From IMG/VR virus record IMGVR_UViG_3300005512_002353: DNA of 64,000 nucleotides; one strand, 5' to 3'. The notes below the pieces were generated by a model, which saw nothing but the letters and a program-made list of their open reading frames with translations, was not told the DNA's origin and made no database searches. Origin of the DNA: a virus (taxonomy: Duplodnaviria > Caudoviricetes). The position numbers and the translations under genes are program-made. How positions within the stretch are numbered: the first letter of the stretch is position 1; each line of letters opens with the position of its first letter. Below, piece after piece: positions 491-55,000 of the stretch.

Positions 491-927
491 TATCTCGCAC
501 CACTTCTAAAAATATCTTCTTCGGTTACCACACGGAATGTTATGCCGTTGGCCTTACACCACTTAGCGGCCTGTTCCCATTTAGCGTGATTGAGAGCAAC
601 TGTCTCTCGGAGGCGACGGTTTTTGTTCTTGCTCTCCACTATGCTTTGGTCCTTAGGTTTGATTTCCACCAGCTCTGTAACTAATTTACCACTTTTGTTC
701 TGGTATTGGACTAAAAAGTCAGGTATGTAGTTACGGTTCTTGCCAGTGAATGGATCTTTGTATGGAATTTTTACGGACTCACTTGCCCACTTGACCACGC
801 TTGGATGTGTGTCACAGAACTTCATGAAAGCATGTTCCCAACCTGAACGATACGTGGGTGCCTTAACACCAACATACTTGTCAGGATTCATTATTGTGAA
901 CTTGCCTTTAGCCCACTTGCCTGCCAT
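490..927 (-). CDS. Head completion nuclease, T4 gp4-like (TnsA-N / PD-(D/E)xK fold)
   Basis: NPDKYVG...YRSGWE...WASE...YIPDF...VEIKP...KWEQA motif series typical of gp4 homologues. Confidence 0.85.
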   Translation of the reverse strand: MAGKWAKGKFTIMNPDKYVGVKAPTYRSGWEHAFMKFCDTHPSVVKWASESVKIPYKDPFTGKNRNYIPDFLVQYQNKSGKLVTELVEIKPKDQSIVESKNKNRRLRETVALNHAKWEQAAKWCKANGITFRVVTEEDIFRSGAR

Positions 928-7441: not shown

Positions 7442-7962
7442 TTTAGTTTGTTTACTCCAAGATGTTTGATGCATGATTGTAGCATTTCTATCTGACGTTT
7501 GCAATCATCTAGGGCATGATGGCTAGCCGATTTGACCTCTGGCATGTCCGGCCAGAGTGCGTATACTGTTCTAGCATCACGGACATTCCAAAACTTCCAT
7601 GGTAAACTAACACCAAGTTCTTTATAAGCGTGTTCCAATATGTTCATATCAAATGTAGGCCCGTTTGCCCATATCCTGTTGCTTTGCCATATCAGTTTGC
7701 CTAGTTCATCCAAGCACTCGTGTAGATCTCTGCGACCTACTTCCTCAAAGACTTCTCGCTGTGCTTCAGGCACTTGATGAGCCCACCATTCAATGGTGTT
7801 GTCATCTGTCTTACGATTTGGTTGGCTTTCGGGTGTCACCCTGGCATAGAAATGGCGTTCTGGCCAACCCGTGGATAGTGGGTCGAAGACCTGAGCCGCT
7901 ATAGTCATAATCATAGCGTCTGGGCCTGTAGCTAGTGTTTCGATGTCAATCATTAAATCCAT
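7438..7962 (-). CDS. DEDDh 3'-5' exonuclease (DexA / Rv2179c-like)
   Basis: MIDIETL, WANGPTFD, RDART, HHALDD motifs. Confidence 0.85.
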   Translation of the reverse strand: MDLMIDIETLATGPDAMIMTIAAQVFDPLSTGWPERHFYARVTPESQPNRKTDDNTIEWWAHQVPEAQREVFEEVGRRDLHECLDELGKLIWQSNRIWANGPTFDMNILEHAYKELGVSLPWKFWNVRDARTVYALWPDMPEVKSASHHALDDCKRQIEMLQSCIKHLGVNKLK

Positions 7963-14323: not shown

Positions 14324-14998
14324 TTACACCTTGCCTACGGCTACTTCGATTACACCTACTCCACTGTCAGTCTTTGCTTCGAGGGCTTTACCAACAACAG
14401 AACCTGGAACAAAATTTTGTGGATCCCATGCTTCAGCATGTCCCTCACTGGCTGATGTTACCAATAGATCACCACGTTCAATTGGACCCACTACCTTGCA
14501 CGGAACACGACCTGTGAGTGCTATGTCCTGGCCTTCTGACCTTTGATTCATCTTGTAAGCAGGGTCTGTGGAAACTATTCCGATGACCTTGTGATCAGCA
14601 TATGAAGAACAAGCAGTTACTTCTTTGGCTCCACCTATGACAACAACCGTTCCTGCCTCATACATGTCATCCGTGGCATATCGTTCTGCCAAGTCAGCAT
14701 ACTGTGCTGAGGTTGATTTAGCAAATACCGTATTGAATCCTACTGTTGCGTTACCAATATTACCAACTCCGTCTGCTGAACCGTTCAATGCTCCGCTGGC
14801 TATAGTTGGTGTTGTTAAGGTCTTGTTTGTTAGTGTTTGTGTAGATGCTTCACCCACCATTGGTTCTCCGCCCGCTGTGGTTCCATCATGTGCGACCAAT
14901 ACGTTTTTATCTGTGTCGTAAGATATCTCACCAGCAGAACCTGTGAAAGCATTGTTCTGTGCTGTGGTTCCTCTTCTAAATTGTAGCGTGGTAGGCAT
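14324..14998 (-). CDS. Fibre protein with Mtd-type N-terminus and C-terminal autoproteolytic chaperone-like domain
   Basis: LQFRRGT...GE...DTD...HDGTTAGG; C-term YADLAERY...GTVV...ALTGRVPCKV.G...GDLL...GKALE. Confidence 0.75.
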   Translation of the reverse strand: MPTTLQFRRGTTAQNNAFTGSAGEISYDTDKNVLVAHDGTTAGGEPMVGEASTQTLTNKTLTTPTIASGALNGSADGVGNIGNATVGFNTVFAKSTSAQYADLAERYATDDMYEAGTVVVIGGAKEVTACSSYADHKVIGIVSTDPAYKMNQRSEGQDIALTGRVPCKVVGPIERGDLLVTSASEGHAEAWDPQNFVPGSVVGKALEAKTDSGVGVIEVAVGKV

Positions 14999-22941: not shown

Positions 22942-23301
22942 TTAGATTGCTGTCAAGGTCAATAAAGATTCAGATGAATCGTCTGCCACTGCCCAGGTGT
23001 AAACAACATCATTATAATCAACCGCTCTGTGAGCTGTGATCTTTTTGATTGCTTTTGCTTCGCCTGCTTCATTCAATCCAACGATGGACATCTCGCCTGC
23101 CGCATGTCCGTTGATCTTGTCAACTAATATACATTCGCCCTGTAGTGAGCCTGCATCGTTTGAAACTGTGAATGTTTTAGAACCTTTTTGATTAACAATG
23201 TAACCCTCAAAATCTGTTCCGCCGATGTCTGCTCGGATTGGAATAGTTGCTGGAGCTGTGCCTGTTGGTCCTAAAAAGTATTTGTCGATTGGTCTACCCA
23301 T
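22942..23301 (-). CDS. Virion protein downstream of the capsid gene (possible head decoration protein)
   Basis: Own TATAAATA promoter (23398-23405) and AGGAG SD; GYIVNQKGSKTFTV motif. Confidence 0.65.
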   Translation of the reverse strand: MGRPIDKYFLGPTGTAPATIPIRADIGGTDFEGYIVNQKGSKTFTVSNDAGSLQGECILVDKINGHAAGEMSIVGLNEAGEAKAIKKITAHRAVDYNDVVYTWAVADDSSESLLTLTAI

Positions 23302-23417
23302 TTTATATTTCTCCTATAAAGAAGTCCAATGCGGGTTCTATCCGCTACGCTGATATGGTTAAACAGCATAAGAAAGCACCCCATGTGCTAACACTAGTAT
23401 TTATAAAAACTTGAGTC

Positions 23418-23474: not shown

Positions 23475-24650
23475 TTATGAGAATGATAAGTTAGATACTG
23501 CAATTTCGCCAACGTAGTCACCAGCATTACCAAATGATGATGCTGTGTTTGTTAATTCTACGTAGCCATAACGTGTTAAGAATGATACTACTGGTTCAAA
23601 TGTTGATGGATCTAAAACAACACCTGAGCTCATTAATGGAACGTATGGGCAATAGAACGCCGCCGCATCTGATTCGCTTGAGCCTTTGTAACCAACTAAT
23701 ACTGCTGTTGTGTCTGAAGCGTATGAGTCAACAAAAATTCTCATAGCACCGTTTAATGTGCCAACGAATTTAGTGTTTGTTGGTGCTTCAAATGTGCCTT
23801 CAGTTGATCTTGCGAACGCTGAAGTTGTAGCAGATTGTAATACTGTTAATGCCGCTGGAGATACAACAGCCCAGTTACCTGCGCCACGACGTGTTCTTTG
23901 AGCGATCAAGTTAGCAGTTCTGTTAATTAAAACAGCAAGTGCCGCATGCTCGTCACCAACGAATGTCGCTGTGCCTGATACTGTAGATTGGTTGTATGTA
24001 AACTCTGTAGCCGCTAATGAACGTAAAGATGCTAAGATCTCTTGATCGATTTCAGCAGTAATTTCTTGTGCTAAAGCCGCCATGATCTCTGCTTCTACGT
24101 CGATGCCGTGCATAGCTTGTGCATCCTGAGCCGCTTCAAATGTCCAACGTGCTTGTAATTTACGTGTTTTTGCTTCAACAGCCTGTTTCAAGATTTGAAC
24201 TGAGATCTTACGACCGCCTGTTCCTTCTTTAGCCGCTGTTACATCGGCGTTACCGGCAGTGCCGTCACCTGAATAAGCAGTAGCAATCTTGAATGGTGAT
24301 AATGCTTCGTCGCCTGCTGTTACATCGTTAGCAGTGCCTGTAGCATTGTTTGTTTCTGCATAACGCACTCTTAATGTGTGGATTTGACCAACTGGGCCAG
24401 TCATTGGTTGAACACCAACGATTTCGTTAGCGATAACTGTTGGCATCACACGTCTGATAACAGGTAGGATAACACGGTTAAGTGTTGCTACGTTACCAGC
24501 TGTTGTTGTGCCAGCCGCTGATGTCTCCATCAAGTGCTTCTTGGTGTTTTCTAAAACAACACCCATTGCGTTTCTTTTATTACCTTGGAGGCCTTCTAAT
24601 AATGCTTCTTTAGTTTCACCCCAACGGCTTTCAAGTAGTTCTTGTGACAT
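23475..24650 (-). CDS. Major capsid protein (gp23-like)
   Basis: RRVMP..IA.EIVGVQPMTGPVGQI, AKTRKLQARWTFEAAQD, EITAEIDQEI, FYCPYVPL, TRYG. Confidence 0.97.
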   Translation of the reverse strand: MSQELLESRWGETKEALLEGLQGNKRNAMGVVLENTKKHLMETSAAGTTTAGNVATLNRVILPVIRRVMPTVIANEIVGVQPMTGPVGQIHTLRVRYAETNNATGTANDVTAGDEALSPFKIATAYSGDGTAGNADVTAAKEGTGGRKISVQILKQAVEAKTRKLQARWTFEAAQDAQAMHGIDVEAEIMAALAQEITAEIDQEILASLRSLAATEFTYNQSTVSGTATFVGDEHAALAVLINRTANLIAQRTRRGAGNWAVVSPAALTVLQSATTSAFARSTEGTFEAPTNTKFVGTLNGAMRIFVDSYASDTTAVLVGYKGSSESDAAAFYCPYVPLMSSGVVLDPSTFEPVVSFLTRYGYVELTNTASSFGNAGDYVGEIAVSNLSFS

Positions 24651-32858: not shown

Positions 32859-32895
32859 AAAAGGCTCACGTTGAGATACTTGGGCCTTTTCTTTT
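32859..32895 (+). terminator. Rho-independent terminator
   Basis: AAAAGGCTCA...TGGGCCTTTT-CTTTT. Confidence 0.7.
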
Positions 32896-32911
32896 GGCCA
32901 TAAGTAATGTT

Positions 32912-33592
32912 ATGTTACTCAGTATACCAAAACAGTTCATCTATCTAAAGACAATGAAGACGGCAGGCACTTCAACAGAGGCCCTGTTAGAACAATATTG
33001 CCTACCACCAGGAACGGAATGTGGCACACATGATCGTGTGCAGACCGTGTCAGATTATGGTATCGCAGGTAGCAGATACAAAGGTTATAAAAAAACAGAT
33101 GTGTTCTATAATCACATGCCTGCAAAGGAACTCAAACAAAAATTAAAACCCGAAGTATGGGACCAATATTTCAAATTTACTTCTGTGCGTAATCCTTGGG
33201 ATCGCATGGTCAGTTTATTTTGGAATTACTATCATCCCAGGGCAGAAGAACTATTGAGCAAACCATTTAGTTATATTCAACATTGGTTCTACAAGTTTGC
33301 CCGAGGTAAGCACAGCATAACAAATTACATGATCGACGACCATAGCATTTATTCAATTGATGAGAAGTTGATTGTTGATGATGTTGTTCGCTATGAATCC
33401 TTACATGATGATCTAGCAAGGATCTGCAAACATTTGGATATTGATTATCGCAAAGAGGAATTACCTCGTTGGAAAACTGATTGGCGCAAACTACCTACCA
33501 ATTATCAGGATTACTACATAGATCAAAAGGTAATTGACAATGTTGCTCTAGGGCATAAGTTTGAGATTGATCATTATGGATACACATTTTAA
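32912..33592 (+). CDS. Sulfotransferase (Sulfotransfer_2 type)
   Basis: KTAGTS (5'-PAPS loop), VRNPWDRMVS (3'-phosphate motif), RYE; ATG 32912 preferred. Confidence 0.85.
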   Translation: MLLSIPKQFIYLKTMKTAGTSTEALLEQYCLPPGTECGTHDRVQTVSDYGIAGSRYKGYKKTDVFYNHMPAKELKQKLKPEVWDQYFKFTSVRNPWDRMVSLFWNYYHPRAEELLSKPFSYIQHWFYKFARGKHSITNYMIDDHSIYSIDEKLIVDDVVRYESLHDDLARICKHLDIDYRKEELPRWKTDWRKLPTNYQDYYIDQKVIDNVALGHKFEIDHYGYTF

Positions 33593-34010
33593 GATGTCTT
33601 ACGACATCTGTATTTCGCTATCGCTCATACCTTTTATTCTTAATACAGTTAATTGATTTCTCTTACATACCCTTCGCGTATCATCTAGATTTAAGTCATA
33701 ATTCACCTATCCGCAGGCAAATCATGACTTGCACATCATCTGAGTGTCGCGTCATACTAATCAAAAGAGATTCCCTAAGGACGGAAGTGGTCAGCCGGTG
33801 CTCCCTACTCTAGATTCATCTGGCGGTTGCTGTATAGTCCGTGATTAGCCAAACTACATCAACACGTGGGTTGCTTTTTCTCAGAGCCCACATCATTTAG
33901 TTTTTAAACTTAATTGCCTTTTCGTCGTCCCGTTCCTGAGTCTTCTCTCAGGAGTTCCACACGCCGTCAGCGTGATCACCTCGTAGGACACAGAGTTACA
34001 TCTGCATCAG
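33592..34010 (-). ncRNA. Candidate large structured non-coding RNA (family not recognised)
   Basis: No credible ORF; at least 6 hairpins, G-U pairs favouring the minus strand, terminal 7-bp stem with GTAA (GNRA) loop. Confidence 0.6.
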
Positions 34011-34792
34011 CGACTGTATGTTTTTTTAAATGCCTTATAAATCTTGTTTGCGAATGTTTTATTGCTATCTATACCTGGGTGTATGTTGTCTGTGCCTAAG
34101 TCTATTCGTTGAGAGTAAAAACTGTCGTATAAGTTAAGCCAATGTTCTTGTCTTATCCCTCCGCATGTTTCATAATGATCGTGCATCATGTTATATAATT
34201 CATATATTTCGTCATCGTCTCTGTTTTCCACATTTAACAATGATTGTGTATATGGTGTTAAATCATTTGGTTTAAATTCTGTTAATCTTTTAAAATAATC
34301 TTGATCCATAGGTAATGCAGAATTAATAAATTTTATGTTAGTGCCATAATGTAGTAGTGTGTTCACATAGGTGCAGATATCCTTAAGGAAATAATGCGGA
34401 TGATTTGATAACAATATCCCCTCCGCTATTGATTTTAATTTTTTCTTTGACCAATGAAAGTCATTTAATTCTATATCTTTCCAATGTTCATTTGTTCCGT
34501 AGTCCGGAGTTACACGCCATGTTACGTCATATGTTTCTAAACCTAACCAACTCCAATATCTGTGTAATCCAGTAAAACCTACAAATACGTAATCGTATGT
34601 GTCTTTATTCAACTCTGATAATGTATCAGTAAAGATCCTTTCGTTACTTTTTCCACCTTGACTGATGTTTTTAATTGTTACATTGTCTCCAAATACATTA
34701 TGCGAAAAAATGTTACACCAGTTATCAGATGATTCAATCCCTCCTACTCCTGAACCATACATTAAAGAGCAACCACTAAATAAAATTTTCAT
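34007..34792 (-). CDS. SGNH/GDSL hydrolase-like protein
   Basis: ILFSGCS...G (block I), N.S.GG.SN (block II), D..HP (block V); visibly AT-richer than its neighbours. Confidence 0.7.
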   Translation of the reverse strand: MKILFSGCSLMYGSGVGGIESSDNWCNIFSHNVFGDNVTIKNISQGGKSNERIFTDTLSELNKDTYDYVFVGFTGLHRYWSWLGLETYDVTWRVTPDYGTNEHWKDIELNDFHWSKKKLKSIAEGILLSNHPHYFLKDICTYVNTLLHYGTNIKFINSALPMDQDYFKRLTEFKPNDLTPYTQSLLNVENRDDDEIYELYNMMHDHYETCGGIRQEHWLNLYDSFYSQRIDLGTDNIHPGIDSNKTFANKIYKAFKKTYSR

Positions 34793-35229
34793 TTTAAATC
34801 TTCTAGTAATACGTCTTTAACAGAGCCTATGCCCAGTCTGATGTTGATTATGCCGTTGTAGTTGTTGTCACGCAACAGCACGTGTTCCTTCATCTGGTAG
34901 TAGCATTCCATGTAGTTCGTTGCGCCTCTGGATTTACACAAATGGATTATTTGCCTTGAGAATTTGTCTTTGCCTAGTTTTTCTATATCTGCCTGTAGTC
35001 GGTCACTGGAGCCCCAGTATTCCTTCCAATCAGATTCTGCCAATGATCTTCTTTTATTTTTCTTGCCTTTGAGTGGTGGACGTGTGACCTTGCGCCAAAA
35101 GAACTTCTTGCCGATGTAGTCATGTCCGTTTGTAGTGTTTGTGATTCTATAGACGAAACCGTAATTGTCACCAATGTCTTCTGAGTCGAAGACTTTTTCT
35201 TGAAGCATCCAAGGGTTTTCGTATGACAA
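34789..35229 (-). CDS. GIY-YIG endonuclease (Seg / endonuclease II-like), catalytic domain only
   Basis: GFVYRITN...YIGKK...YWGSS...F.R.II...E...YNG. Confidence 0.9.
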   Translation of the reverse strand: MSYENPWMLQEKVFDSEDIGDNYGFVYRITNTTNGHDYIGKKFFWRKVTRPPLKGKKNKRRSLAESDWKEYWGSSDRLQADIEKLGKDKFSRQIIHLCKSRGATNYMECYYQMKEHVLLRDNNYNGIINIRLGIGSVKDVLLEDLK

Positions 35230-35294
35230 TGCGGTTCCTTTCTAATGAATTTGTAGCAATTAAATTTATGCCAATTGCCGAGGCATGGGAAAAT

Positions 35295-37064
35295 TTAGAC
35301 AGTCTCTACGTCGTTACCGTAGGTAGTAAAGCCATTTTCCTTGGTAACGGTCATTATGTTATTCACACGCCCTGCTAGTTCGTCTTTGTGTGATACAAGC
35401 CATATTGACTTGTTGTGTTCTCTTGACATCTTTTTAAGTATGGCCAATGCTGACTCAACGCCACTAGCATCCATACCAGAGTCAATCAACTCATCAATGA
35501 ACAGCAAGTTGATAGGATCATATAAACTTTCATACACATCACGGAATGACCATGACAGTGAAAGTATCAATCTATTACGCTCACCTCTAGATAGGTTGTC
35601 AAAATCTAACTCACGGCCAAGTTCAGTTATCTCAACTGACAGATCGCTAAGGAAGGTGACTGTGTGTGGCAGTCCGATCTTGTCTAGATAATAACTTAAC
35701 CGTGAATTAAGATAACTCAAGTTTTGGTCAATGATACGTTTACGGATAAATGAATCCTTGTTGGTCAACAGTTTTTGTAAGAACTCCTGGTGTTCTCTTA
35801 GTTTAACTAGATTATTAATCTCATCGTAGTTGAGTTCTTGTTCAGCAGTTTCTTCCATTTCCTGTATTTGTTCTTGGTATGGATCCACTTCTTCCTGTTT
35901 TGATTTTAACTGTGCTTCCAGTGCTGTGATTGAACTTTTATGTTCAAATGCGTCCTGCTCATTAAGGTAAAACACTTCAGGTGCAAAGCCAACATCACCA
36001 AGCTCTGATAATGCGTCTGTGAGTTGCTGTAAGGTCGCTGTGTGCGTTTCTACATCTTCTTTGACTCTGACTAGCGTTGCTTGTTTTTCTTCTAACTGTG
36101 CTTCGTGTTTGTCGTCATGTATTTCTTGTCCGCAACTGTGACACTTGTGTTCTTTTAACAACTTGATGTCTTGTTCTAACTTAACAACGTTGCCTTGTTC
36201 ACGTGTAAGATCTCGCTCTGTTCTTGTGATAGCATCTGTGATGTCATCATGATCTTTCTTACGTTGTTTAAACTTAGCAAGTTCCTTATGATTGGCAAGT
36301 TCCTTGTCAACATCAATCTCTTCAAGTTTTGCCAGCCCTGCTTCTAGATAGTCGATGTCATCTTCTTTTTTCTGTGCCCAAAGTTTTTGCCTACGCTTCA
36401 TAGACTCTACTTGTTCTTTTAATTTTTCGTTGGCATCTTTTTGAGCTTCTATTCTTATCTCTTCTTCTTTGATTCGATCTCTGGTTTCTTTTAAACGTTC
36501 TTTTAGTGCGTCTGCTTTTTCACTTAGTAAAGTAATACCAAGTAACTGTTCGATAATATCTTTTTGATCGTTGGCTCTAAGGTTAAGGAATGGTTCTGTG
36601 TAGGTATTTAAGGCAACCAAGTGTTTGAACATCTCATGGCTCATGCCCAGCATGTGTTCTATCGCCTTTTGTGTCTCTCGGCTATCACCCTGTGCCATGT
36701 CTGTGATCTCTTGTTCGTCATCACCTACAAAGAAACGCATGACATTTTTCTTACGTCCGCGTTCTATTTTATATATTTGCCCGTCGTGCTCAAAGTCCAA
36801 TGAAACTAACATGCCTTTTGAATTAGTCTTGTTGATCAAGTTATCACGCTTGATATTGGTCAGTGCTTGACCAAACAGTGCGTATGAAAGGGCATTGATT
36901 ATGGTAGTCTTACCAGTGCCATTACGTGCACCTGAGTCGTCTCCACCTAGATCAATGTTAACTCCCAAAACCAAAGTTAGGTCGTTGCGATCAAAGTTAA
37001 CTGCCTGCGTGGCATTACCCACACTCATAAAATTCTTAACTGTAAGTGTCTTTAGTTTAAACAA
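35295..37064 (-). CDS. Recombination nuclease ATPase subunit (gp46 / SbcC-Rad50-like)
   Basis: KNFMSVGN, NGTGKTT Walker A, CHSCGQ Zn hook, LSRGE signature, LLFIDE Walker B, VSH. Confidence 0.95.
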   Translation of the reverse strand: MFKLKTLTVKNFMSVGNATQAVNFDRNDLTLVLGVNIDLGGDDSGARNGTGKTTIINALSYALFGQALTNIKRDNLINKTNSKGMLVSLDFEHDGQIYKIERGRKKNVMRFFVGDDEQEITDMAQGDSRETQKAIEHMLGMSHEMFKHLVALNTYTEPFLNLRANDQKDIIEQLLGITLLSEKADALKERLKETRDRIKEEEIRIEAQKDANEKLKEQVESMKRRQKLWAQKKEDDIDYLEAGLAKLEEIDVDKELANHKELAKFKQRKKDHDDITDAITRTERDLTREQGNVVKLEQDIKLLKEHKCHSCGQEIHDDKHEAQLEEKQATLVRVKEDVETHTATLQQLTDALSELGDVGFAPEVFYLNEQDAFEHKSSITALEAQLKSKQEEVDPYQEQIQEMEETAEQELNYDEINNLVKLREHQEFLQKLLTNKDSFIRKRIIDQNLSYLNSRLSYYLDKIGLPHTVTFLSDLSVEITELGRELDFDNLSRGERNRLILSLSWSFRDVYESLYDPINLLFIDELIDSGMDASGVESALAILKKMSREHNKSIWLVSHKDELAGRVNNIMTVTKENGFTTYGNDVETV

Positions 37065-38081
37065 TTATAGATCTCTGTAAATTTCTAACAACATTTTGGG
37101 ATCATAGTGATCCGACTCTATTGATGTTAACTGATTTGTCACGATGGTGTCAACTGATTCGAACTTCAACTCGCCTGGTTCTGCTACCGATTCCATGATG
37201 TCCTTCTTGACTGGAATTAATGTTAGTTCTCTCAATTTATACTTGCCTACGAACTCCTCACGAATGAAACTTGCTTCTTCATAACTAATATCAATATTCA
37301 AGTTTACACGGATGTGCATCTTTTCTTTCAGTAACTCTTCTGGATTGTTTAACATCTCATCTAAGTTGTAGACTCTGTATCGGGGTTGTTGTGGCCATGA
37401 ATGATACACGGGATCCTTACCCCATTCAACGATGGTCATGCCTCTGTCATCATCACCTGCGTCGGCATAGTTGTGGGGAAAGCAATTACCAGTATAGATA
37501 ATATTATTGTGACTTTGTCGTTTATGGAAGTGTCCTGTATACACATGTTCTAGACCACGGAAGTCTTCACGCTGTATCTCACCTGTGTCTGGCATCTGCA
37601 CCATGGCATTCATAAAGAAGTGAGGTAACTCTAGATGTCCAAAAGCATACTTGCCTTCCATCTTTTTAACTTTCTTTGCTTCGTCACCTACCAGCCAAGG
37701 TATGAATTGGACATCGCCTTCTGAATAGAAATCATTCATGATGTGGACGTTCTTGATGTGTTTGGCCCAGGCCGCTGACTGTATGTCACGCTTGTCTCTA
37801 TAATATAAGTCGTGATTGCCTGGAATGAAGAACACACGATCAAAGGCATCTCCCAGTAATTCTAATGCCGTTAGGCTATAATTGAGTGTGACGATATTGA
37901 TCGCGGCACGATTGTTGTGCCAATCGCCCATCATGATACAGGTGTCACAACCTTCCTGTTTGGCCTTTTCAATGAACCATTTAACGAAACCAAGACAGTC
38001 CTCGTTGTGTGTTGTGCTGTTTGACTTCAGTCCAAAATGGATATCTGTAAGGACAGCCGCCTTTTTAAATAGATTCGCCAT
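37065..38081 (-). CDS. Recombination nuclease subunit (gp47 / SbcD-Mre11-like)
   Basis: TDIHFG, GDWH, PGNHD, GHLE, GHFH metallophosphoesterase motifs. Confidence 0.95.
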   Translation of the reverse strand: MANLFKKAAVLTDIHFGLKSNSTTHNEDCLGFVKWFIEKAKQEGCDTCIMMGDWHNNRAAINIVTLNYSLTALELLGDAFDRVFFIPGNHDLYYRDKRDIQSAAWAKHIKNVHIMNDFYSEGDVQFIPWLVGDEAKKVKKMEGKYAFGHLELPHFFMNAMVQMPDTGEIQREDFRGLEHVYTGHFHKRQSHNNIIYTGNCFPHNYADAGDDDRGMTIVEWGKDPVYHSWPQQPRYRVYNLDEMLNNPEELLKEKMHIRVNLNIDISYEEASFIREEFVGKYKLRELTLIPVKKDIMESVAEPGELKFESVDTIVTNQLTSIESDHYDPKMLLEIYRDL

Positions 38082-48600: not shown

Positions 48601-49025
48601 TGTTGAGTGACAACATGATCATGAATTCCGTAACATTTAAACCATTATTTGGTGCAAAGGCCGCAACAGAACTACAGGCTAAAATTAAAGTAATCAAATA
48701 TCAAGGTGTTATCACTTCAACCAGTGAAATTAAATCACGTGTCGTAGAAGCAATGAATGAATATTTTACAATTGATAAATGGGACTTTGGTGATACATTC
48801 TATTTCTCAGAATTATCAGCATACCTACATGAACAACTAGGTGATATCGTATCAAGTGTTGTGCTTGTTCCAAATGATCCAACTAAATCATTTGGTGATT
48901 TATACGAAGTCAGATCAGCACCTGACGAGATTTTTGTAAATGCGGCCACAGTTAATGACATTGACGTAGTTGATGCACTAACTTCAAGCGTATTAAGAAC
49001 AGCAACTAACAGTGGGATTGTTTAA
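45627..49025 (+). CDS. Baseplate wedge subunit gp6-like
   Basis: YDYETLR, ARENFIDTAERR.SV..LA...GYKP, FGDG..IP, ET..EIK..AP....TQNRMV..EDY. Confidence 0.9.
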   Translation: MAKTTRQTSIFGAEDWKRLYQTFREADLQSYDYETLRKSMVDYLRLYYPETFNDFTESSEFVALMDLMAFMGQGLAFRNDLNARENFIDTAERRDSVVKLAELVGYKPKRNQNAQGYIKVTGVTTTESVTDYNGNNLSGVTVRWNDSTNADWYEQFNTIMNAAMVSSQRFGRPGHGQSLLGVQTDEYELNVTPGYLPVVPFESTVDGVGMSFEVTSATSADKTYIYEPAPQPDGAMNVLYRNDKLGYGSANTGYFFYFKQGSLINQQFTLGERISNRAVDIAIDGVNNDDVWLFEVENNTLTEWLKVDSIYGVGATPVADGQQRTVYSVESAANDTITINFGDGIFAKIPVGTYRTYVRTSNGLEYVINPNEIQSVTVSLPYTSRNGRNEQITFTLGLQEPVTNAKARETLDEIKTRAPARFYTQNRMVNGEDYNNFPYTQYTSILRSKAVGRSSIGLNRYLDLLDPTGKYSSTNAFCADGMLYRDYLDPNYTFTFVDTNDISASIANDLEPKLSARAMRHFYNDKFARINLTSTDILWQQSTTTTNQSTGYFKTAAGGVIAVGDIASGNTKYIVNGALIKFEAPAGYFFDSNNKLKAGTPTGANEKLVVWATVTSLTGDGTNFGEGNLADGSGPVALNDFLPTGADVTEVIPVFVTDIPASIETLMIEQVELYRNFGIGFDNQTGNWYIISADNLNENAEFNLSYAKNTDRLQRDASWLAQFTTDGTTYTVKYRNLNYYFASVAENRFISDSNDNIYDPQTGQVVNDFVNVIKMNSGPDSNSALSTDIKLDVVGQEVETDGFIDNFKILVSYADSDADGVADNPDIFNDIVAPSTNAATKKIFLQKITDFDNLERYTPVASGVINTLYADLDAMELAKSEYLDGQVFYGTTSGLFYTLTVSGTTYTLTQTTDYLAKTGRQDLYFHYRHNSSDSKRIDPAITNIIDLYLVTNAYYTAYQNWINDTTGKVTEPAQPTIDELTIAYSGLNDYKMLSDNMIMNSVTFKPLFGAKAATELQAKIKVIKYQGVITSTSEIKSRVVEAMNEYFTIDKWDFGDTFYFSELSAYLHEQLGDIVSSVVLVPNDPTKSFGDLYEVRSAPDEIFVNAATVNDIDVVDALTSSVLRTATNSGIV

Positions 49026-52000
49026 TGGCAACAACTAGAATAAGATCGGTAGATCTACTACCTGAGATATTTAGAACTGAAACCAACAAAAAGTTCTTAG
49101 CATCTACCCTAGATCAAATGATCCAACCATCACGCCTACAGCGTGTTGAAGGATATGTTGGTCGTGGCTACGGTCTGGGTGTTAACCCAGCAGACAATTA
49201 TGTTCTAGAGCCAAACAAAGAAAGAACAGACTATCAGTTAGAACCTGCAATCACATATAAAGTTGCTAATACCGATAAAACACGTGATCTAATCACATAT
49301 CCTGAACTGCTTGATGCTATCCAGGTGCACGGTGGCGATGTATCTAGACACGATAGATTATTTTCAAGTGAATTCTATTCATGGGATCCTTTTGTTGATT
49401 ATGATAAGTTTGTTAACTTTGGACAATACTATTGGTTAAGCAGTGGACCTGATCCTGTTGATGTTCAAGCAACTGAAATAGCAACATCAGACTCATACGC
49501 TGTAACACGTCTAGACGATGGATATAATTTAGAAGGACAGGCAGGCGACAATCCAACTATTACGTTGGTCAGGGGCGGCAACTACACATTTGAAGTAGAA
49601 CAAACAGGTAATCCATTCTGGATACAAGCATCACCAGGCACCGACGGAACACTGACACAAACACCAAATATATCAGCAAGAACTATTTTAGGTGTTACCA
49701 ACAACGGTGAGGATAATGGCACAGTAACTTTTAACGTTCCTGACTCGACAGCACAGAATTTTTACTATAATTTAAATGATCTGGGTGATGTAGATCTAGC
49801 AACTGATCTTAAGTTTGATCAAATTAATAATCGTTATGTTGATGAATTCTTAGCAGACACAGATGGAATTGATCAAATTAGAGACCTAGACGGTAGAACC
49901 CTGATCTTTTTAAGTCGCAACACTGAAACAGATCCAGAATTATCAGGATGGCGCATAACAGATCAATTTGACAACGCTAACTTTGATACTACTAATTACG
50001 CACAGGAAACAGCGATATCAACATCAGCACAGCGTTATTCAGTGTGGCGTATTGAATATGTTGCAGGCCCTGATGGCAGAAACTATATTAAATTAAATTC
50101 CACATTATCAGTTCCACAAAATTCAAAGGTAGAAATACAATACGGTTCAGTAAATTCGTCAAGAACATTCTGGAAAAATGCTGAAGGGTTCTTTGAGGAA
50201 CAACCATTACTGACAGCCACAATGGATCAACTATGGTATCAGGATGGTAACGATGCTACTAAGTTTGGTGTAATTAAAATTGTTGACCAAGCAGATCAAT
50301 TAACTCTAGATGTTGAAGATGACATTGTAGGCAAGACAGGATACACATCACCCAATGGTGTTGCGTTTACCAACGGATTAAAAGTTAAATTTCGTGGCAC
50401 CACAGAGCCAGCAGATTATCAGGATAAAGAATATTACGTCGAAGGCGTGGGCACTGCAATTAAATTATTAGCAGTAGCAGATTTTAAAACACCAGAAGAG
50501 TTTACTAATTCAGAAACACTACCGTTTGATTCAACAGCCTATGACGCTTCACCGTGGGATGAGTCATTGAACGCTCCCAAAGATGCAGACTACTACACAA
50601 TTAATCGAGCAAGTTTAGATAAAAATGCTTGGACAAGATCAAATCGTTGGTTCCATGTTGACGTAATTAACAAAACTGCTGAATATAATAATTCAGTGGC
50701 CATACTAGATCAGAATCTGAGAGCGAAAAGACCTGTTGTTGAATTTAAAGCAGGCCTGAGATTATACAACTACGGCACACTGGGCAAAGAAGAAATTGAT
50801 ATTATTGATTTAAATCAAACAGATGCATTGTCAAATGTCAACGGCAAGGTAGGATATTCAACAAACGGCTATGCACTGGTTGACGGTTCTAGAGTTATTT
50901 TTGCCAACGATCTGGATCCAGAAGTAAGAAATAAAATATATCAAGTTGAATTAATTGATGAGGACGGTGTCTCATCAACAGATAAGATTATTAATCTAAC
51001 AGTGGCCAGCGATGGTGTTGTGGCAACAGACGATGTTGTTTATCTATCCAGTGGTGCTACTCTTCAAGGCAAGACATATAGATACAATGGCACTAGTTGG
51101 GTAGAAGCACAGCAGAAAACAACAGTTAATCAGGCACCTTTGTTTGATATTTTTGATGTAAATGGACGTAGCCTAGGTGACAATACATATTACCCATCAA
51201 CAAACTTTAAAGGCACTAAACTATTTTCTTATGCAGAAGGTTCGGGTGCAGTTGATCCGATATTAAATCAAAGATTAAAATACTTAAACATTGACAATGT
51301 GGGCGACATTGTGTTTGATAATAATCTAGAAAAAGACACATTTACCTACACTGTTGATTCAACATCTACTACTAAATCAATTAACTTTGGTTTTGTTCAT
51401 AACTATTCATCAAGAACTGCTTATGATCAAGAAATAGGTTGGAAGAAACATAATAATAAATCAATACAGTATCAAGCTCTAACATTTACTTGGGCTGGTG
51501 TTGATCTGGTATGTGATGTCCCCGCCAAAACATCAGTGGAAAATCCAGTGATTGTTTATGTAAACAATGTTTATCAGGAGCCAAGTAGATATTCTTACAC
51601 AGTGAGTTCAACACAGACCACTGTGACATTTGCTACAAACTACATACCTAAGACAGGTGACAACATTGTTATTCAGATACAAAGTGACGTAGCAAGTTCA
51701 GCAGGCTTTTATGAAGTTCCAGATAATCTAGCAAACAATTCACCTAACGGTTCTTTCAATGACATCACACTAGGAACAATTAGAAATCACTATATTGATC
51801 TTGCACAGCATATCACTAAATTATCAGGACAAGTGCTAGGTAAAAATAATATTAGAGACCTAGGCGATGTTGTTCCTTACGGTAATAAAATTGTTCAACA
51901 AGGCTCGCCACTACAACTAGCGGCCACATTTACTCGTGATTCAAACATTAATTTCTTTGAAGCATTAAACTATGCTAGTCGTGAATATGAAAAATATAAA

Positions 52001-55000
52001 TGGAAATTAATTGAAAGTTATAGTAAAAATGATTTCCAAGGAACGATCAGAGATCAATTAGATCAGGCTATCCAATATGTCAATGAGGGCAAAGAAAATT
52101 CAATGCCGTTTTATTGGTCAGACACAATACCATGTGGTGATGTCTATACAGAAACAAAGTATACAGTAACAGCAATTGATGATGCAATATTTGATCTTAC
52201 TCAAACCTATGACTTTACTAAAGCAAACTACCGAGGTCTATTAGTTTACTTAAATGATGTTCAATTGTTAAAAGATACAGACTACACAGTTCCTGCTAAC
52301 GCGGCTCGAATTAATATATCGGCAACACTAAACACAGGTGATGTGCTGGTAATCAGAGAATATGAAACAACAGCAGGGTCATACTTACCAGCAACACCAA
52401 CAACATTGGGCATGTATGGTCGTTGGGATCCGGAGATTGTCACAGACAACACCTACATAGAACCACAGACTGTTGTTATTGGCCATGACGGTTCTAGAAC
52501 TGTTGGCTTTGGTGATACCAGAGATGACTTATTGTTAGAATTTGAAAAACGCATCTACAATAACATTAAAGTGTCAAAAGATGATGAGCTACCATTGAAA
52601 TATGAAGACGTAGCACCAGGTAAGTTTAGAACAACAGATTACACACAAACTGAAATTACTGAGATACTAGGCACTGACTTCCTGTCATGGGTAGCATGGA
52701 ATAGATTAGACTATAAAGCACAGACATATGACGCAAATGATCAAAAAACATGGAACTATTCATCGGCAGAAGATACAGTTGACGGTGAATTACTACTAGG
52801 ACACTGGAGAGGTATTTTTAACGAGTTTTATGATACTGATACTCCGCACACGCATCCATGGGAAATGATTGGGTTTACAGAAAAACCTGAATGGTGGAAT
52901 ACAAAATATGGTCCTGCACCTTATACGTCAGGCAACGAAGTTCTATGGGATGATTTTGAAGCAGGTCGTGTCTGGGATGGTGTTGATACCTACACTGTAG
53001 ACACGAGATACAAACGTCCAGGACTAACATCAGTTATACCTGTTGACGATGAAGGTAACCTAAGAACAGCATTTGACACAATGACTGGCAAGTATGACAG
53101 CCTAAGTCTTAAGAAGTCTTGGGTAGTTGGCGATCACGGTCCTGTAGAAACAGTATGGCGTAGATCTAGTTCTTGGGCATTCAGTGTAATGCGTTTACTA
53201 GCACTGACCAAACCAGCAGAGTTCTTTGCCCTATACGCAGATAGAGACTTATACAAACGTAACACTGCATTAGATCAAATTGTTTGGAACGGACGTTCTA
53301 GAATTAGAGCAGAAGATATTACAATCTACGGTGCCAGCACACCTAAACATTCTTATATCAACTGGTCAGTAGACTATGCTCGTAAACAAGGTATTGATAC
53401 TAACACAGAAATTAAACAAGTATTAGAAAACATGGATGTTCAACTTGTCTATAGAATGGCAAGTTATTCAGACAAAGAATACTTGAAAGTGTTTACTGAA
53501 AAAACATCGCCTAATTCAAACAATACAAGTTTATTATTACCTGATGAAAGTTATGAAATATTCTTACACAATAACGAAGTGTTTGACACAGCAGAATATT
53601 CATCAGTTATTATACAAAAAACAGATGATGGTTGGGCAGTGTATGGTAATTCAAAATTAAATCCATACTTTGAAATATTCACAAGTATTCCAAACGGTAA
53701 TTATAAAACAGTTCAAGTAGGCTCAGAATCAGTAAGGGTGTCCAGCGACTTTGAAACTACTACAAGTAAAGTTCCATACGGTTATGTGTTTACTAATCGT
53801 TCAACTATGTGTGACTTCTTAATAAGTTACGGACGTGCCCTAGAAGCAAAAGGTATGGTGTTTGATGACACAGACAACAATTACCTGCTTGATTGGACAC
53901 AAATGATCCGTGAGTTCCTCTACTGGAGTCAACAAGGCTGGACCACAGGTTCGTTAATCAACATTAATCCTAATGCTAACAAACTTTATTTAGAAAGAAG
54001 TCAAGCAGTGGTTGCTCCAATTATTGGTCAGACAGCAGATGACTTTATATTAAATCAAAATCTGAGAGCAATTTCGAACAGTGATCTGGTGTTTAATAGA
54101 CAAGAAAATCAATTCGAAGTTAAGACCACAAACGAAAATGCCATATCATATGCCAGGATGAAGATGACCAGTTACGAACACGTTCTGGTGTTCGATAACA
54201 AATCTATCTTTAATGATCTAATATATGATCCAATCACAGGCTCAAGACAAAATAGATTAAAATTAGTTGGTTACAACACAGGCGACTGGAACGGTAACAT
54301 CGAAGCACAAGGGTTCATATTCAACTTTGACAATGTTGTTGAGTGGTCAGGTGTTAACAGATACAGCAAAGGCGACATAGTTCTTTATAAAAATGTTTAC
54401 TACACAGCTGGTGAATCAGTTCCGCCTAGCGATAAATTTGATTATTCAAAATGGTTAGAAACAGAATACGATCGAATCAAGAAAGGTCTACTACCTAACC
54501 TTAGCCTTAAAGCAGATCAATTACGTGACTACTACGATCATAACATAGCAAACTTAGAAGCAGATGCTGATCAGTTAGGTTTCCACTTAGTGGGCTTCAC
54601 AGAAAGAGATTACTTGGCCAACATGGGGCTGAGTGATATCAGTCAGGTCAGAGTCTATGAAAACTTTATTGGTAACAAAGGAACAAGACGTGCAGTTGAT
54701 CTATTTAAATCAGCAAGATTGCCTAAAGAACTGGCAACATATAATGTCTCAGAGAACTGGGCGGTCAAGCAAGGCACATATGGTGCGTCAGCAAACAGAA
54801 GTTTCTATGAACTACGCTTAGACGAAACTAAGATGAGTTCTAACCCATCAACAATAGCACTGTCAGCCAGTGAGCAGTTAGATGTTGATCAGACTGTGGT
54901 GTTATCAGACATTTATAAACAGAGTTATAAAATAGCATCTGCAAACGTATTACCAACCACAGACTATGTGTCAAGTGAGAACAATTTACCAACAGCAGGT

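What the first reader, a model, noticed from the sequence alone, without database searches (positions are those of the whole stretch)
33592..34010. Candidate ~420-nt structured ncRNA in the largest non-coding gap
Seen: the genome is otherwise gene-packed, but this gap has no credible ORF. The minus strand folds into many stems. These include a 16-bp stem AAGTCATGATTTGCCT/AGGTGAATTATGACTT with three G-U pairs (33693-33730), which would be A-C mismatches on the + strand, and TGTAGTTTG/CGGACTATA with G-U pairs. Others are ATGTGGG/CCCACGT (33864-33893), a perfect TCCTGAG/CTCAGGA (33934-33953), CACGCT/GGCGTG, a closing GTCCT/GGGAC helix, and a terminal AGATGTC-GTAA-GACATCT GNRA hairpin (33592-33609). 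Known: large ornate RNAs (GOLLD, ROOL) occur in phages. I cannot match this one by eye to tRNA, tmRNA, RNase P or a group I/II intron. Inference: an undescribed phage ncRNA transcribed at the end of the gp55-gp47-gp46-GIY-YIG operon.
Basis: partly seen in the sequence, partly recalled or inferred. Interest (0 to 1): 0.88.

Follow-up and report, generated by a model that had tools for sequence, protein, structure and literature searches.

The report
Large pseudoknotted phage RNA, twin heptamers
The gap holds a real, roughly 425-nt folded non-coding RNA, a distant unrecognised branch of the orphan 'Polynucleobacter-1' RNA family, and its core has two short repeats that always change together so as to stay identical, which no known RNA mechanism explains.

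Summary
On that alignment 96 pairs in 19 helices are 94.7% paired (35-43% when partners are slid), and 46 pairs change on both sides.

The RNA runs on the minus strand, about 34016 to 33592. It has two covariation-supported pseudoknots. It sits at a fixed place in uncultivated T4-like phages, two of them complete ~346-kb genomes: gp55-gp47-gp46 ... short GIY-YIG gene, then the RNA, then a convergent baseplate gene.

It is not wholly undescribed. In a sister branch the first ~140 nt are Rfam RF01718 (Polynucleobacter-1, 2010, function unknown). The window's RNA misses that model, and the shared ~300-nt 3' core is not in Rfam 15.

The main new result concerns two direct repeats, M1 and M2, that flank the 16-bp hairpin. 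They are identical in 142 of 143 distinct phage sequences, across 11 heptamer variants and at least 20 mirrored changes per variable position. A bacterial branch beside tyrosine integrases obeys the same rule with unrelated heptamers. I found no complementary partner, no reverse transcriptase and no covariation with the GIY-YIG protein.

Function is unknown. My best guess is a stand-alone folded RNA in which the twin repeats contact each other like-with-like.

The parts
33592..34016 (-). The whole RNA, about 425 nt. Conservation starts at CAGUCG (34016-34011) and ends at the terminal hairpin.
   Evidence: Conservation boundaries in flank alignments; nhmmer full-length matches; structure counts.
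33927..34005 (-). 5' domain: hairpin H1 (34001-34005 with 33990-33994) and a three-way junction closed by GUCC/GGGAC (H2) that holds H3 (33960-33974) and H4 (33934-33953).
   Evidence: Compensatory changes in H1 (2 of 5 pairs), H2 (3 of 6), H3 (5 of 5) and H4 (5 of 7). This domain differs between subfamilies; in subfamilies 2 and 4 its place is taken by RF01718.
33866..33891 (-). Hairpin H6 (GUGGG ... CCCAC) with the conserved loop CUCUGAGAAAAAGCAA.
   Evidence: 4 of 5 pairs with changes on both sides.
33829..33865 (-). Hairpin H7/H8. Its loop GCUAAUCA (33842-33849) forms pseudoknot PK1 with UGAUUAGU (33756-33763).
   Evidence: H8: 7 of 9 pairs compensatory. PK1: 8 bp, 4 compensatory, 99.5% paired.
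33762..33822 (-). Most conserved core: CCGCC-CAG, helix H9 (AGAG/CUCU) and hairpin H10. CAG (33820-33822) pairs with the H10 loop CUG (33792-33794) as pseudoknot PK2.
   Evidence: PK2 covaries as CAG/CUG, UGU/ACA, CGU/ACG, CAU/AUG, UGA/UCA and CAC/GUG across subfamilies. This region is the anchor of the pattern scans.
33734..33745 (-). Repeat M1: ACUC + heptamer AGAUGAU (33735-33741).
   Evidence: Heptamer identical to that of M2 in 142 of 143 distinct sequences.
33693..33730 (-).
   Evidence: 13 counted pairs, 98.3% paired, 3 compensatory and 5 with G-U/A-U or G-U/G-C switches.
33678..33690 (-). Repeat M2: AUCU + heptamer AGAUGAU (33680-33686), 55 nt after M1.
33631..33677 (-). Variable A-rich spacer.
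   Evidence: Poorly conserved and variable in length in A1 and A2.
33610..33630 (-). H12 module: covarying stem (GUAU/AUAC), then GA / GC-GNNA-GC / GAA.
   Evidence: The lower stem switches between GUAU/AUAC, CUUC/GAAG, GCAU/AUGC and UUGAU/AUCAA; the inner pair switches C-G to U-A.
33592..33609 (-). Terminal hairpin AGAUGUC-GUAA-GACAUCU. It abuts the stop codon of the convergent gene.
   Evidence: The stem covaries in distant relatives (AGACUUGC, AGAUGAAC, AGAACUUC, UAACGAGC ...). Some relatives have an intrinsic terminator 15-90 nt further on.
34789..35229 (-). Short GIY-YIG-only nuclease gene (146 aa).
   Evidence: Pfam SegE_GIY-YIG at 2e-40; PHROG 447. It is directly upstream of the RNA in 114 of 148 loci.
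34007..34792 (-). 261-aa ORF inserted between the GIY-YIG gene and the RNA. Its last codons overlap the RNA's conserved 5' leader.
   Evidence: No Pfam or PHROG hit. The same arrangement occurs only in L054 and L063; homologues sit elsewhere in other loci.
35295..38081 (-). gp46 (35295-37064) and gp47 (37065-38081) recombination nuclease genes, upstream in the same direction.
   Evidence: Pfam AAA_23 and Metallophos. gp46 lies upstream on the same strand in 39 of 43 RNA-anchored loci.
32894..33592 (+). Convergent sulfotransferase-like gene. Its stop codon touches the terminal hairpin.
   Evidence: Pfam Sulfotransfer_2. The downstream gene differs between relatives.

Best explanation
Shown: this is the gene of a ~425-nt non-coding RNA. 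It reads on the minus strand, behind the short GIY-YIG nuclease gene at the end of the gp55-gp47-gp46 unit. It ends at a hairpin where transcription from the baseplate genes converges. The fold has about 19 helices and two pseudoknots. It is a deep, so far unrecognised branch of a family whose other branches begin with the Rfam motif Polynucleobacter-1 (RF01718). The family occurs in T4-like phages (two complete genomes of ~346 kb) and in bacterial chromosomes.

Inferred: it acts as a folded, stand-alone RNA, not as a control element for a neighbouring gene. Its conserved core is built around hairpin H11, which is flanked by two single-stranded direct repeats (M1, M2). These may have almost any sequence but must be identical. 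Only two sites ever change together, and I found no third partner. The reading I commit to is therefore that M1 and M2 touch each other base by base, like with like (A with A, G with G, U with U), running in parallel, as part of the tertiary fold. The link to the GIY-YIG gene is most likely co-transcription and conserved gene order, not an obligatory RNA-protein machine.
For: Real RNA: conservation, covariation and strand. There is one copy in each of the two complete genomes examined, G001 and G002.

Fixed position: gp46 upstream in 39 of 43 loci and a convergent baseplate gene downstream in 70 of 73. A GIY-YIG gene is directly upstream in 114 of 148.

Family link: RF01718 is the 5' domain of subfamily 2 (14 of 14 loci tested) and of subfamily 4 (8 of 8). 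The window's own profile finds the shared 3' core in subfamily-2 loci such as L030, L033 and L034 (profile positions 209-428, 41-44 bits).

Identity rule: mutual information is 1.0 bit between matching positions of M1 and M2 (AA 34/GG 30; GG 30/AA 34). 142 of 143 distinct sequences are identical, with 11 variants including all 8 combinations of the three main variable positions. A tree built without the repeats gives at least 28, 20 and about 20 (20 in M1, 19 in M2) mirrored changes. Relatives about 94-95% identical in the flanking core differ in both copies. Subfamily 4 obeys the same rule with unrelated heptamers such as AGCGAAA, AUCAAAA, ACCAAAA and GACAAAA.

Self-contained: no reverse complement of the heptamer lies inside any RNA or at a fixed place nearby. 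No 10-nt complement exists in the two complete genomes; single 9-nt matches, about as many as chance predicts, are not at homologous places. No GIY-YIG protein column tracks the code. The linker after H11 (8-10 nt) is longer than the one before it, as a parallel arrangement needs (inference).
Against: As far as I know (from memory, not checked), a continuous 7-9-position parallel like-with-like helix has no precedent in a natural RNA. Nothing here tests it physically. Pyrimidine-for-purine swaps at positions 2-3 in subfamily 4 are not isosteric.

No transcript data could be obtained, so the 5' and 3' ends, abundance and even expression remain inferred.

The tight spacing to the GIY-YIG stop codon, a RusA-like resolvase taking its place in 7 loci, and a tyrosine integrase beside the bacterial branch could mean a real functional tie to DNA-cutting enzymes.

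A 6-7-nt external target cannot be excluded by genome searches.
Confidence: 0.4

Rival explanations
1. Twin guide or recognition RNA for a DNA-processing enzyme. M1 and M2 each pair with the same short sequence in two DNA strands or duplexes (for example the two like strands of a crossover, or a donor and a target sharing a core). They would direct or license the neighbouring nuclease or recombinase, in the manner of IS110 bridge RNAs or OMEGA RNAs.
For: The RNA lies beside three unrelated DNA-cutting or strand-exchange enzymes. These are GIY-YIG (114 of 148) and a RusA-like resolvase (7) upstream in phages, and a tyrosine integrase downstream on the same strand in 57 of 73 bacterial loci. The code turns over quickly and may be almost any sequence, as expected for a programmable segment. 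The protein does not need to covary with the code, and it does not. Short guide segments and a core shared between two loops have a precedent in bridge RNAs (PMC11208158; the review PMC13604230 lists only the IS110/IS1111 systems as RNA-guided recombinases).
Against: The same GIY-YIG family (PHROG 447) is present without this RNA in Methylophilales phage Melnitz (whole record searched) and, by gene order and blastn only, in cyanophages. Unrelated ORFs can sit between the GIY-YIG gene and the RNA. An integrase next to a structured RNA gene is also the usual signature of an island integrated into that gene, as with tRNA and tmRNA genes (established knowledge), and L312 looks like that. No target was found.
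Confidence: 0.2
2. Matched take-off and landing sites. A polymerase (copy-choice or realignment) or another translocating machine carrying a complementary strand jumps between M1 and M2 across hairpin H11. This would give either a product without H11 or tandem ~55-nt repeats. Analogues are T4 gene 60 bypassing, coronavirus TRS switching, and the template ends of telomerase-like or DRT ncRNAs.
For: Direct repeats of arbitrary but identical sequence flanking a hairpin, with a 47-60 nt period (56-72 nt in the bacterial branch), are what such jumps require. Only two sites need to co-vary. Tandem-repeat DNA synthesis by an antiviral reverse transcriptase on an ncRNA template is reported (bioRxiv 10.64898/2026.06.29.735271, abstract seen). 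That T4 gene 60 has matched codons across a 50-nt gap with a hairpin is recalled from memory.
Against: No reverse transcriptase (PF00078) in five phage records, including two complete ~346-kb genomes. There is no open reading frame through M1, so ribosomal hopping does not apply. M1 carries an extra C relative to M2, and a further U/A position just outside the heptamer also stays identical, which a simple jump does not need. No DNA copy lacking H11 was seen among 161 loci.
Confidence: 0.12
3. A cis-acting 3' untranslated structure. It would protect the GIY-YIG/gp46 operon mRNA from 3' decay, terminate convergent transcription, or serve as a structured primer RNA of a replication origin (ColE1 RNA II-like, with RNA M1 re-pairing to template DNA at M2).
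For: It lies at the 3' end of a transcription unit, at a convergence point, and ends in a conserved hairpin. Relatives have intrinsic terminators shortly after it. An A-rich, AT-rich spacer follows M2. An upstream RNA segment re-pairing with downstream template DNA would also give an identity rule (my recollection of ColE1 RNA II; not checked here).
Against: About 19 covarying helices, two pseudoknots and invariant loops are far more than a stabiliser or terminator needs. The terminal hairpin has no U-tract in the window. The family also occurs in bacterial chromosomes in a different gene context.
Confidence: 0.1
4. Decoy or sponge with two identical binding sites for a host or phage RNA, or for a nucleic-acid-guided defence protein.
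For: Two exposed identical sites about 55 nt apart resemble sponge RNAs. The code turns over quickly.
Against: Every code change would also need a change in the partner. No complementary sequence is conserved in the two complete phage genomes. The bacterial branch shows the same rule, which fits poorly with an anti-host decoy.
Confidence: 0.08

Closest known systems
Polynucleobacter-1 RNA motif (Rfam RF01718; Weinberg et al. 2010, PMC2864571)
   Same: Same family in the wide sense. RF01718 is the first ~140 nt of the sister RNAs (subfamilies 2 and 4), which share the ~300-nt 3' core with the window's RNA. It is found in the same freshwater setting. The 2010 note that the motif lies downstream of a gene related to a cyanophage gene plausibly matches the GIY-YIG neighbour, though I did not verify that GOS11034 or PSSM2_218 belongs to this GIY-YIG family.
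   Different: The window's RNA does not match the model at all; its 5' domain is simpler. The Rfam entry covers only a 141-nt 5' piece, was typed as an sRNA or possible cis-regulator, and has no known function. The 3' core, the two pseudoknots, the twin repeats, the residence in T4-like phages and the GIY-YIG identity of the neighbouring gene were not described there.
Large ornate orphan RNAs of bacteria and phages (GOLLD, ROOL, OLE, raiA)
   Same: Several hundred nucleotides, many covarying helices and pseudoknots, found by comparative genomics, and function unknown. GOLLD, ROOL and OLE have cryo-EM structures showing homo-oligomeric RNA-only assemblies (PMC12286853).
   Different: No sequence or structure match to any of them in Rfam 15. 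I do not know of an identity-covarying direct repeat in those classes.
Nuclease- or recombinase-associated guide RNAs (HEARO/OMEGA RNAs of IscB and TnpB; IS110/IS1111 bridge and seek RNAs)
   Same: A structured RNA encoded next to a small DNA-cutting enzyme gene on the same strand. It holds short, freely variable segments within a conserved scaffold. In bridge RNAs the two loops share one core sequence.
   Different: No target complementarity was found. The GIY-YIG family also exists without the RNA. No transposon ends are present, and the position in the phage genome is fixed. The two variable segments are wholly identical rather than two different guides sharing a 2-nt core.
T4 gene 60 bypass element with the mobA homing endonuclease
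   Same: T4-type phage. A ~50-nt segment with a hairpin lies between matched short sequences, next to a homing-endonuclease-type gene. This resemblance is recalled from memory and was not tested.
   Different: There is no reading frame here. The identity spans 6-8 nt, not one codon. The element is embedded in a large covarying RNA fold.

Membership tests
Rfam RF01718 Polynucleobacter-1 RNA | Covariance-model score at or above the gathering threshold (37 bits) | tested here: not met
   No hit in the window at gathering or at E<=10 over 33400-34200. Sister RNAs score 71-120 bits.
Rfam RF01718 Polynucleobacter-1 RNA | Homology of the rest of the molecule to RNAs that carry the motif | tested here: met
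   A profile of the window's subfamily finds the 3' core (profile positions about 112-428) directly behind RF01718 in subfamily-2 loci. Shared features are PK2, M1-H11-M2, the H12 module and the terminal hairpin. Subfamily 4 is linked by architecture and by RF01718, not by nhmmer.
Group I intron | Match to group I covariance models; P3-P7 pseudoknot core | tested here: not met
   No Rfam intron hit at E<=10. The pseudoknot topology (hairpin loop to a downstream strand) differs by inspection.
Group I intron | Interrupts a gene whose exons flank it | tested here: not met
   gp46 and the GIY-YIG ORF are complete. The downstream gene is convergent and differs between relatives.
tRNA / tmRNA / RNase P RNA | Detection by ARAGORN or Rfam models | tested here: not met
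   ARAGORN finds nothing in the window. No Rfam hits.
GOLLD / ROOL / OLE / HEARO / IMES | Match to the family covariance model | tested here: not met
Guide RNA of an RNA-guided nuclease or recombinase | Encoded next to the effector gene, same strand, across divergent members | tested here: met
   GIY-YIG directly upstream in 114 of 148 loci, down to about 35% protein identity. Integrase downstream in 57 of 73 bacterial loci.
Guide RNA of an RNA-guided nuclease or recombinase | Effector family depends on the RNA (co-occurrence both ways) | tested here: not met
   PHROG 447 homologues in Melnitz (whole record searched with the RNA) and, by gene order only, in cyanophages S-SCSM1 and P-TIM68 lack the RNA. 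No blastn match in 50,697 phage records.
Guide RNA of an RNA-guided nuclease or recombinase | Variable segment complementary to a definable target | tested here: inconclusive
   No enriched or positionally fixed complement within 5-10 kb on either side or in two complete genomes. A 6-7-nt target cannot be excluded.
Intrinsic terminator / simple 3' stabiliser | GC-rich hairpin followed by a U-tract, with no further conserved structure | tested here: not met
   No terminator call at the RNA's end; 19 covarying helices lie upstream of it.
GIY-YIG nuclease (neighbouring gene) | GIY-YIG catalytic domain profile | tested here: met
   Pfam PF19835 at 2.2e-40 over profile positions 1-119 of 123. The GIY and YIG motifs, Glu and Asn are visible in the sequence. 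No solved-structure relative by sequence.

The most novel reading that the evidence does not exclude
The twin heptamers reveal an RNA principle not described before. It is either a parallel, like-with-like helix of 7-9 positions used as a structural element, or a pair of matched sites read against one complementary strand (a twin guide for crossover-processing enzymes, or take-off and landing sites for a jumping polymerase). It occurs in a 450-nt RNA class shared by freshwater bacteria and the T4-like phages found with them (two complete genomes of ~346 kb).
Probability: 0.45. Interest if true: 0.92.

Novelty: new variant of a known kind. Interest (0 to 1): 0.8.

Why it matters
First, a 141-nt orphan Rfam motif turns out to be only the front end of a ~450-nt, doubly pseudoknotted RNA. 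The class has at least four branches and is common in lake metagenomes, in T4-like phages (two of them complete ~346-kb genomes) and in bacterial chromosomes. It therefore joins the short list of large structured RNAs without a known function.

Second, the identity rule between M1 and M2 holds in 142 of 143 distinct phage sequences, with at least 20 mirrored changes per variable position. This kind of covariation is not the Watson-Crick kind that standard tools look for, and no known RNA motif explains it. Whichever explanation holds (like-with-like tertiary pairing, twin guides or matched jump sites), it can be tested directly, because any heptamer should work as long as both copies agree.

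Third, according to the 2010 paper one family member lies in a cultivated bacterium, Polynucleobacter sp. QLW-P1DMWA-1, at NC_009379.1:2130672-2131206. Genetics is therefore possible without first isolating the phages.

Tried and rejected
- **Known families.** Rfam at gathering and at E<=10 on the window gave nothing for the gap; the only window hit is freshwater-2 at 23299-23390. ARAGORN found nothing.
- **GenBank phage isolates.** blastn with three family members gave no match. The closest isolates by gp46 are PA5oct-like Pseudomonas jumbo phages at 50% identity.
- **261-aa ORF as a search handle.** No relatives were found in IMG/VR by pattern search.
- **Group I intron carrying the GIY-YIG ORF.** Rejected. 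The flanks are complete genes that vary between relatives, and the only conserved RNA 5' of the ORF is a small hairpin and a TAAAT(G/A)-like motif.
- **Coding potential.** Only unconserved 30-35-aa ORFs are present. Indels are not in multiples of three, and substitutions compensate in stems.
- **Internal Watson-Crick partner for M1/M2.** None found.
- **External partner.** None within the 5-10 kb held on each side. None as a 10-mer in two complete genomes, and the single 9-mer matches are at chance level and not at homologous places.
- **Protein read-out of the code by GIY-YIG.** Mutual information was at the level of shuffled labels.
- **Phage reverse transcriptase.** Absent.
- **Other readings of M, considered by eye and dropped because variants break the defining bases.** These were hammerhead, C/D-box or kink-turn, CsrA-site, stop-codon, promoter, and triple-helix readings (a triple helix needs mirror repeats, not direct repeats).
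- **Antiparallel M1-M2 self-duplex.** Dropped. It would pair position 1 with position 7, yet these vary independently.
- **Covariance model of the whole RNA.** Not attempted, because the alignment exceeds the 400-column and time limits of the model builder.
- **Polynucleobacter genome locus.** Could not be fetched.
- **Broad mutual-information scan.** It was dominated by subfamily signal and added nothing beyond M1/M2 and the known helices.
Full report
**1. The observation**

The window is part of a T4-like phage. It carries the gp23 capsid, gp20 portal, prohead protease, tail sheath and gp15 genes. GC content is 40.6%. The stretch 33593-34006 is the largest non-coding gap in a greedy ORF map.

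The gap lies between two convergent genes. One is a sulfotransferase-like gene on the plus strand that ends at 33592. The other is a 261-aa ORF on the minus strand whose stop codon is at 34007-34009.

The minus strand folds 3.2 standard deviations better than dinucleotide shuffles; the plus strand gives 2.0.

**2. Conservation and structure**

I used gp46 to fetch 80 related loci from IMG/VR. nhmmer found the gap sequence in 43 of them. It is always on the gp46 strand and lies 0.5-5 kb downstream of gp46. Nucleotide identity is 68-93%, about as conserved as the gp46 protein itself.

An alignment of 23 distinct copies (A1) gives an RNAalifold structure of 78 pairs, 37 with compensatory changes. 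A helix scan and inspection added two pseudoknots:
- PK1 joins the loop of hairpin H8 to a strand about 90 nt downstream. It has 8 bp and switches such as CUAAUCA/UGAUUAG, CUAACUA/UAGUUAG and CUGACUA/UAGUCAG.
- PK2 is a 3-bp contact between CAG and the loop of H10. Across the family it reads CAG/CUG, UGU/ACA, CGU/ACG, CAU/AUG, UGA/UCA or CAC/GUG.

The full model has 96 pairs in 19 helices, and 94.7% of cells are paired. Shuffles give 83.4%, and sliding the 3' partners by 1-3 columns gives 35-43%. Forty-six pairs change on both sides, against 6-14 for slid partners. The covariation score is 0.355, against 0.03-0.09.

Invariant G-U pairs fix the sense strand as the window's minus strand. Conservation begins at CAGYCR, a few bases before YUGAUGCAGA, and ends exactly at the terminal hairpin.

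**3. What it is not**

- It is not a tRNA or tmRNA.
- No Rfam 15 family matches the gap, even at E<=10.
- It is not an intron. gp46 and the GIY-YIG ORF are complete, and the downstream gene differs between relatives.
- It is not coding.
- It has no match in 50,697 GenBank phage records.

**4. Genomic setting**

In nearly all close relatives the RNA starts 4-9 nt after the stop codon of a 142-157-aa ORF. That ORF consists of a GIY-YIG domain only. It matches Pfam SegE_GIY-YIG and PHROG 447, which is wrongly named 'NAD synthetase'. The window's homologue is 34789-35229. Here, as in L054 and L063, a 261-aa ORF of unknown family has been inserted between the two.

A degenerate pattern from the RNA core pulled at least 120 further IMG/VR loci, independently of any protein. 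nhmmer confirmed 111 of 119 of them. Among 148 loci with an upstream same-strand ORF:
- 114 have the GIY-YIG gene;
- 7 have a RusA-like resolvase (PHROG 244);
- 5 have the 261-aa family;
- 22 have something else.

Synteny is strict. gp46 is upstream in 39 of 43 loci, and the PF12322 baseplate gene is convergent downstream in 70 of 73. Two carriers are complete genomes of ~346 kb with one RNA copy each. Six contigs binned into Bacteroidota MAGs also carry GIY-YIG plus the RNA.

The GIY-YIG family does not depend on the RNA. In Methylophilales phage Melnitz and in cyanophages S-SCSM1 and P-TIM68 it follows nrdB. For Melnitz, a search of the whole record found no copy of the RNA. For the cyanophages, the gene order leaves little room, and blastn found no match in any phage record.

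A covarying hairpin and a TAAAT(G/A) motif upstream of the GIY-YIG gene suggest that the pair has its own promoter. This is inference only.

**5. Link to a known family**

More distant phage copies keep the 3' two-thirds of the RNA but have other 5' domains.

In subfamily 2 the 5' domain is Rfam RF01718, the Polynucleobacter-1 RNA. It scores 116.6 bits in L034 and is present in 14 of 14 subfamily-2 loci tested. It is not found in subfamily 3 (L084, L098), in L080 or in the window.

Weinberg et al. 2010 listed this motif with 16 members from fresh water or estuaries and from Polynucleobacter sp. QLW-P1DMWA-1. [quoted passage not shown] They found none in purified phages (PMC2864571 supplement). 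Their Stockholm file shows flanking sequence with the same 3' architecture.

A metagenome scan with a pattern from that flank gave at least 119 loci (subfamily 4). All 8 tested carry RF01718. They lie in bacterial-looking contigs with a tRNA gene, SAM-I/IV riboswitches, and glyoxalase and CHRD genes. They have no GIY-YIG, gp46 or baseplate genes. Their neighbours are:
- a divergent DUF6641 gene upstream in 50 of 72 loci;
- a tyrosine integrase downstream on the same strand in 57 of 73 loci.

In L312 the integrase is followed by island-like genes. This is the usual picture of an island integrated into a structured RNA gene, as is well known for tRNA and tmRNA genes.

**6. The twin repeats**

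Hairpin H11 is flanked by two single-stranded direct repeats:
- M1 is ACUC + AGAUGAU, with the heptamer at window 33735-33741.
- M2 is AUCU + AGAUGAU, with the heptamer at window 33680-33686.

In the 64-sequence alignment A2, matching positions of M1 and M2 share 1.0 bit of mutual information. The counts are AA 34/GG 30 and GG 30/AA 34. A U/A position just upstream gives UU 60/AA 4. The next best column for any of these positions reaches at most 0.36 bit.

Over all loci, 142 of 143 distinct sequences have identical heptamers. There are 11 variants, including all eight combinations of R-GAU-R-A-W. The spacing is 47-60 nt (a 144th regex match, L205r, was the reverse strand of a MAG contig and is spurious).

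On a tree of 128 cores built without the repeats, parsimony needs at least 28, 20 and about 20 (20 in M1, 19 in M2) changes at the three main positions. These are mirrored in both copies. RNAs about 94-95% identical in the flanking core already differ in both copies.

Subfamily 4 obeys the same rule with unrelated sequences, such as AGCGAAA, AUCAAAA, ACCAAAA, GACAAAA, AGAGAAA and GGUGAAA. Heptamers are identical over all seven positions in 71 of 90 sequences. Of the six other cases printed, five differ only at position 7 or position 1, and one was a spurious regex match.

**7. Tests of explanations for the identity rule**

- No reverse complement of the heptamer occurs inside any RNA or at a fixed place in the flanks. 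Own-variant inverted repeats are not enriched.
- The two complete genomes hold no complementary 10-mer. Their single 9-mer matches, about the number chance predicts, are not at homologous places.
- No column of the GIY-YIG protein tracks the code.
- No reverse transcriptase is present in five records, two of them complete.
- An antiparallel M1-M2 duplex would pair position 1 with position 7, yet these vary independently.
- Triple helices require mirror repeats, not direct repeats (established knowledge).

What remains are mechanisms in which only the two sites need to agree. One is direct like-with-like contact in parallel orientation. Another is reading of both sites by one and the same complementary strand, made or carried by some machine. 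A third is two equal guide segments whose target is free to differ between lineages.

**8. Verdict**

The RNA is real (about 95% sure). It belongs to an extended Polynucleobacter-1 family of which Rfam holds only a 5' piece. It occupies a fixed position in a large clade of uncultivated T4-like phages, two of them complete ~346-kb genomes.

Its function is unknown. I commit, at about 35%, to a stand-alone folded RNA whose twin repeats pair like-with-like as part of the tertiary fold. The rivals are:
- a twin-guide role with the neighbouring DNA-processing enzymes (about 20%);
- matched jump sites (about 12%);
- a cis 3' element or origin primer (about 10%);
- a decoy (about 8%).

None of these is shown. 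The rescue experiment with matched heptamer changes, together with structure probing or cryo-EM, would decide between them.

Noticed in passing
window 23299-23390 (-): Rfam freshwater-2 RNA (RF02980; 66.6 bits, full-length match). It lies between the gp23 capsid gene (23475-24650) and the next ORF (22942-23301). This is a second orphan RNA motif in the same phage.
   Followed up: no
window 49025-62419 (+): A single open reading frame of 4464 aa, preceded by ORFs of 1132, 715 and 914 aa. None of the four was annotated with a family here.
   Followed up: no
window 34007-34792 (-): A 261-aa ORF with no Pfam or PHROG family, wedged between the GIY-YIG gene and the RNA. Homologues sit at other places in related phages: L045 and L078 upstream of gp46, L038 right after gp46, and L054 and L063 as here. 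The gene seems to move around. Its last codons overlap the RNA's conserved 5' leader.
   Followed up: partly
window 35230-35294 (-) and the same place in L004, L008, L014, L017, L172: A short intergenic element upstream of the GIY-YIG gene: AAAUUUUC, a covarying hairpin, then (C)AUAAAUGU and a GAAAGGAA ribosome-binding site with a UUG start codon. Possibly a terminator plus a late-type promoter.
   Followed up: partly
L074, L080, L113, L116, L129, L157, L158: In seven loci a RusA-like Holliday-junction resolvase gene (PHROG 244, about 170 aa) takes the place of the GIY-YIG gene directly upstream of the RNA.
   Followed up: partly
L247-L365 (e.g. L312:5850-7803, L319:3644-5260): A bacterial branch of the RNA (RF01718 plus the 3' core). 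A divergent DUF6641 gene lies upstream in 50 of 72 loci, and a tyrosine integrase lies downstream in 57 of 73. In L312 the integrase is followed by an AAA ATPase and unknown genes, like an island integrated into the RNA gene.
   Followed up: partly
L202-L207 (MAG contigs labelled Flavobacteriales, Haliscomenobacter, uncultured Bacteroidetes): Contigs carrying the RNA, four of them also a GIY-YIG hit, sit in Bacteroidota MAGs. Two large contigs (148 and 183 kb) of one Haliscomenobacter MAG each carry a copy. This is either a host hint or phage contigs binned by mistake.
   Followed up: no
GenBank records hit (e.g. KM359505.1 152334-152768, KR052482.1 165973-166389): The short GIY-YIG family (PHROG 447) is annotated 'NAD synthetase' in many cyanophage and Sinorhizobium phage records. 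In cyanophages and Melnitz it follows nrdA-nrdB, the place of denA (endonuclease II) in T4; the T4 gene order is from memory.
   Followed up: partly
window 490-927 (-), 14324-14998 (-), 7438-7962 (-): A TnsA-like endonuclease N-terminal domain ORF, an ORF with the N-terminal domain of the Bordetella phage tropism determinant Mtd, and an Rv2179c-like 3'-5' exoribonuclease. No reverse transcriptase turned up among the window ORFs that were scanned.
   Followed up: no
subfamily 4 RNAs (NC_009379.1 flank): With the commonest bacterial heptamer, AGCGAAA, the same seven bases also occur in the conserved core strand GAYAGCGAAACCGCC and in the H12 module ...AGCGAAA.... This may be chance.
   Followed up: partly
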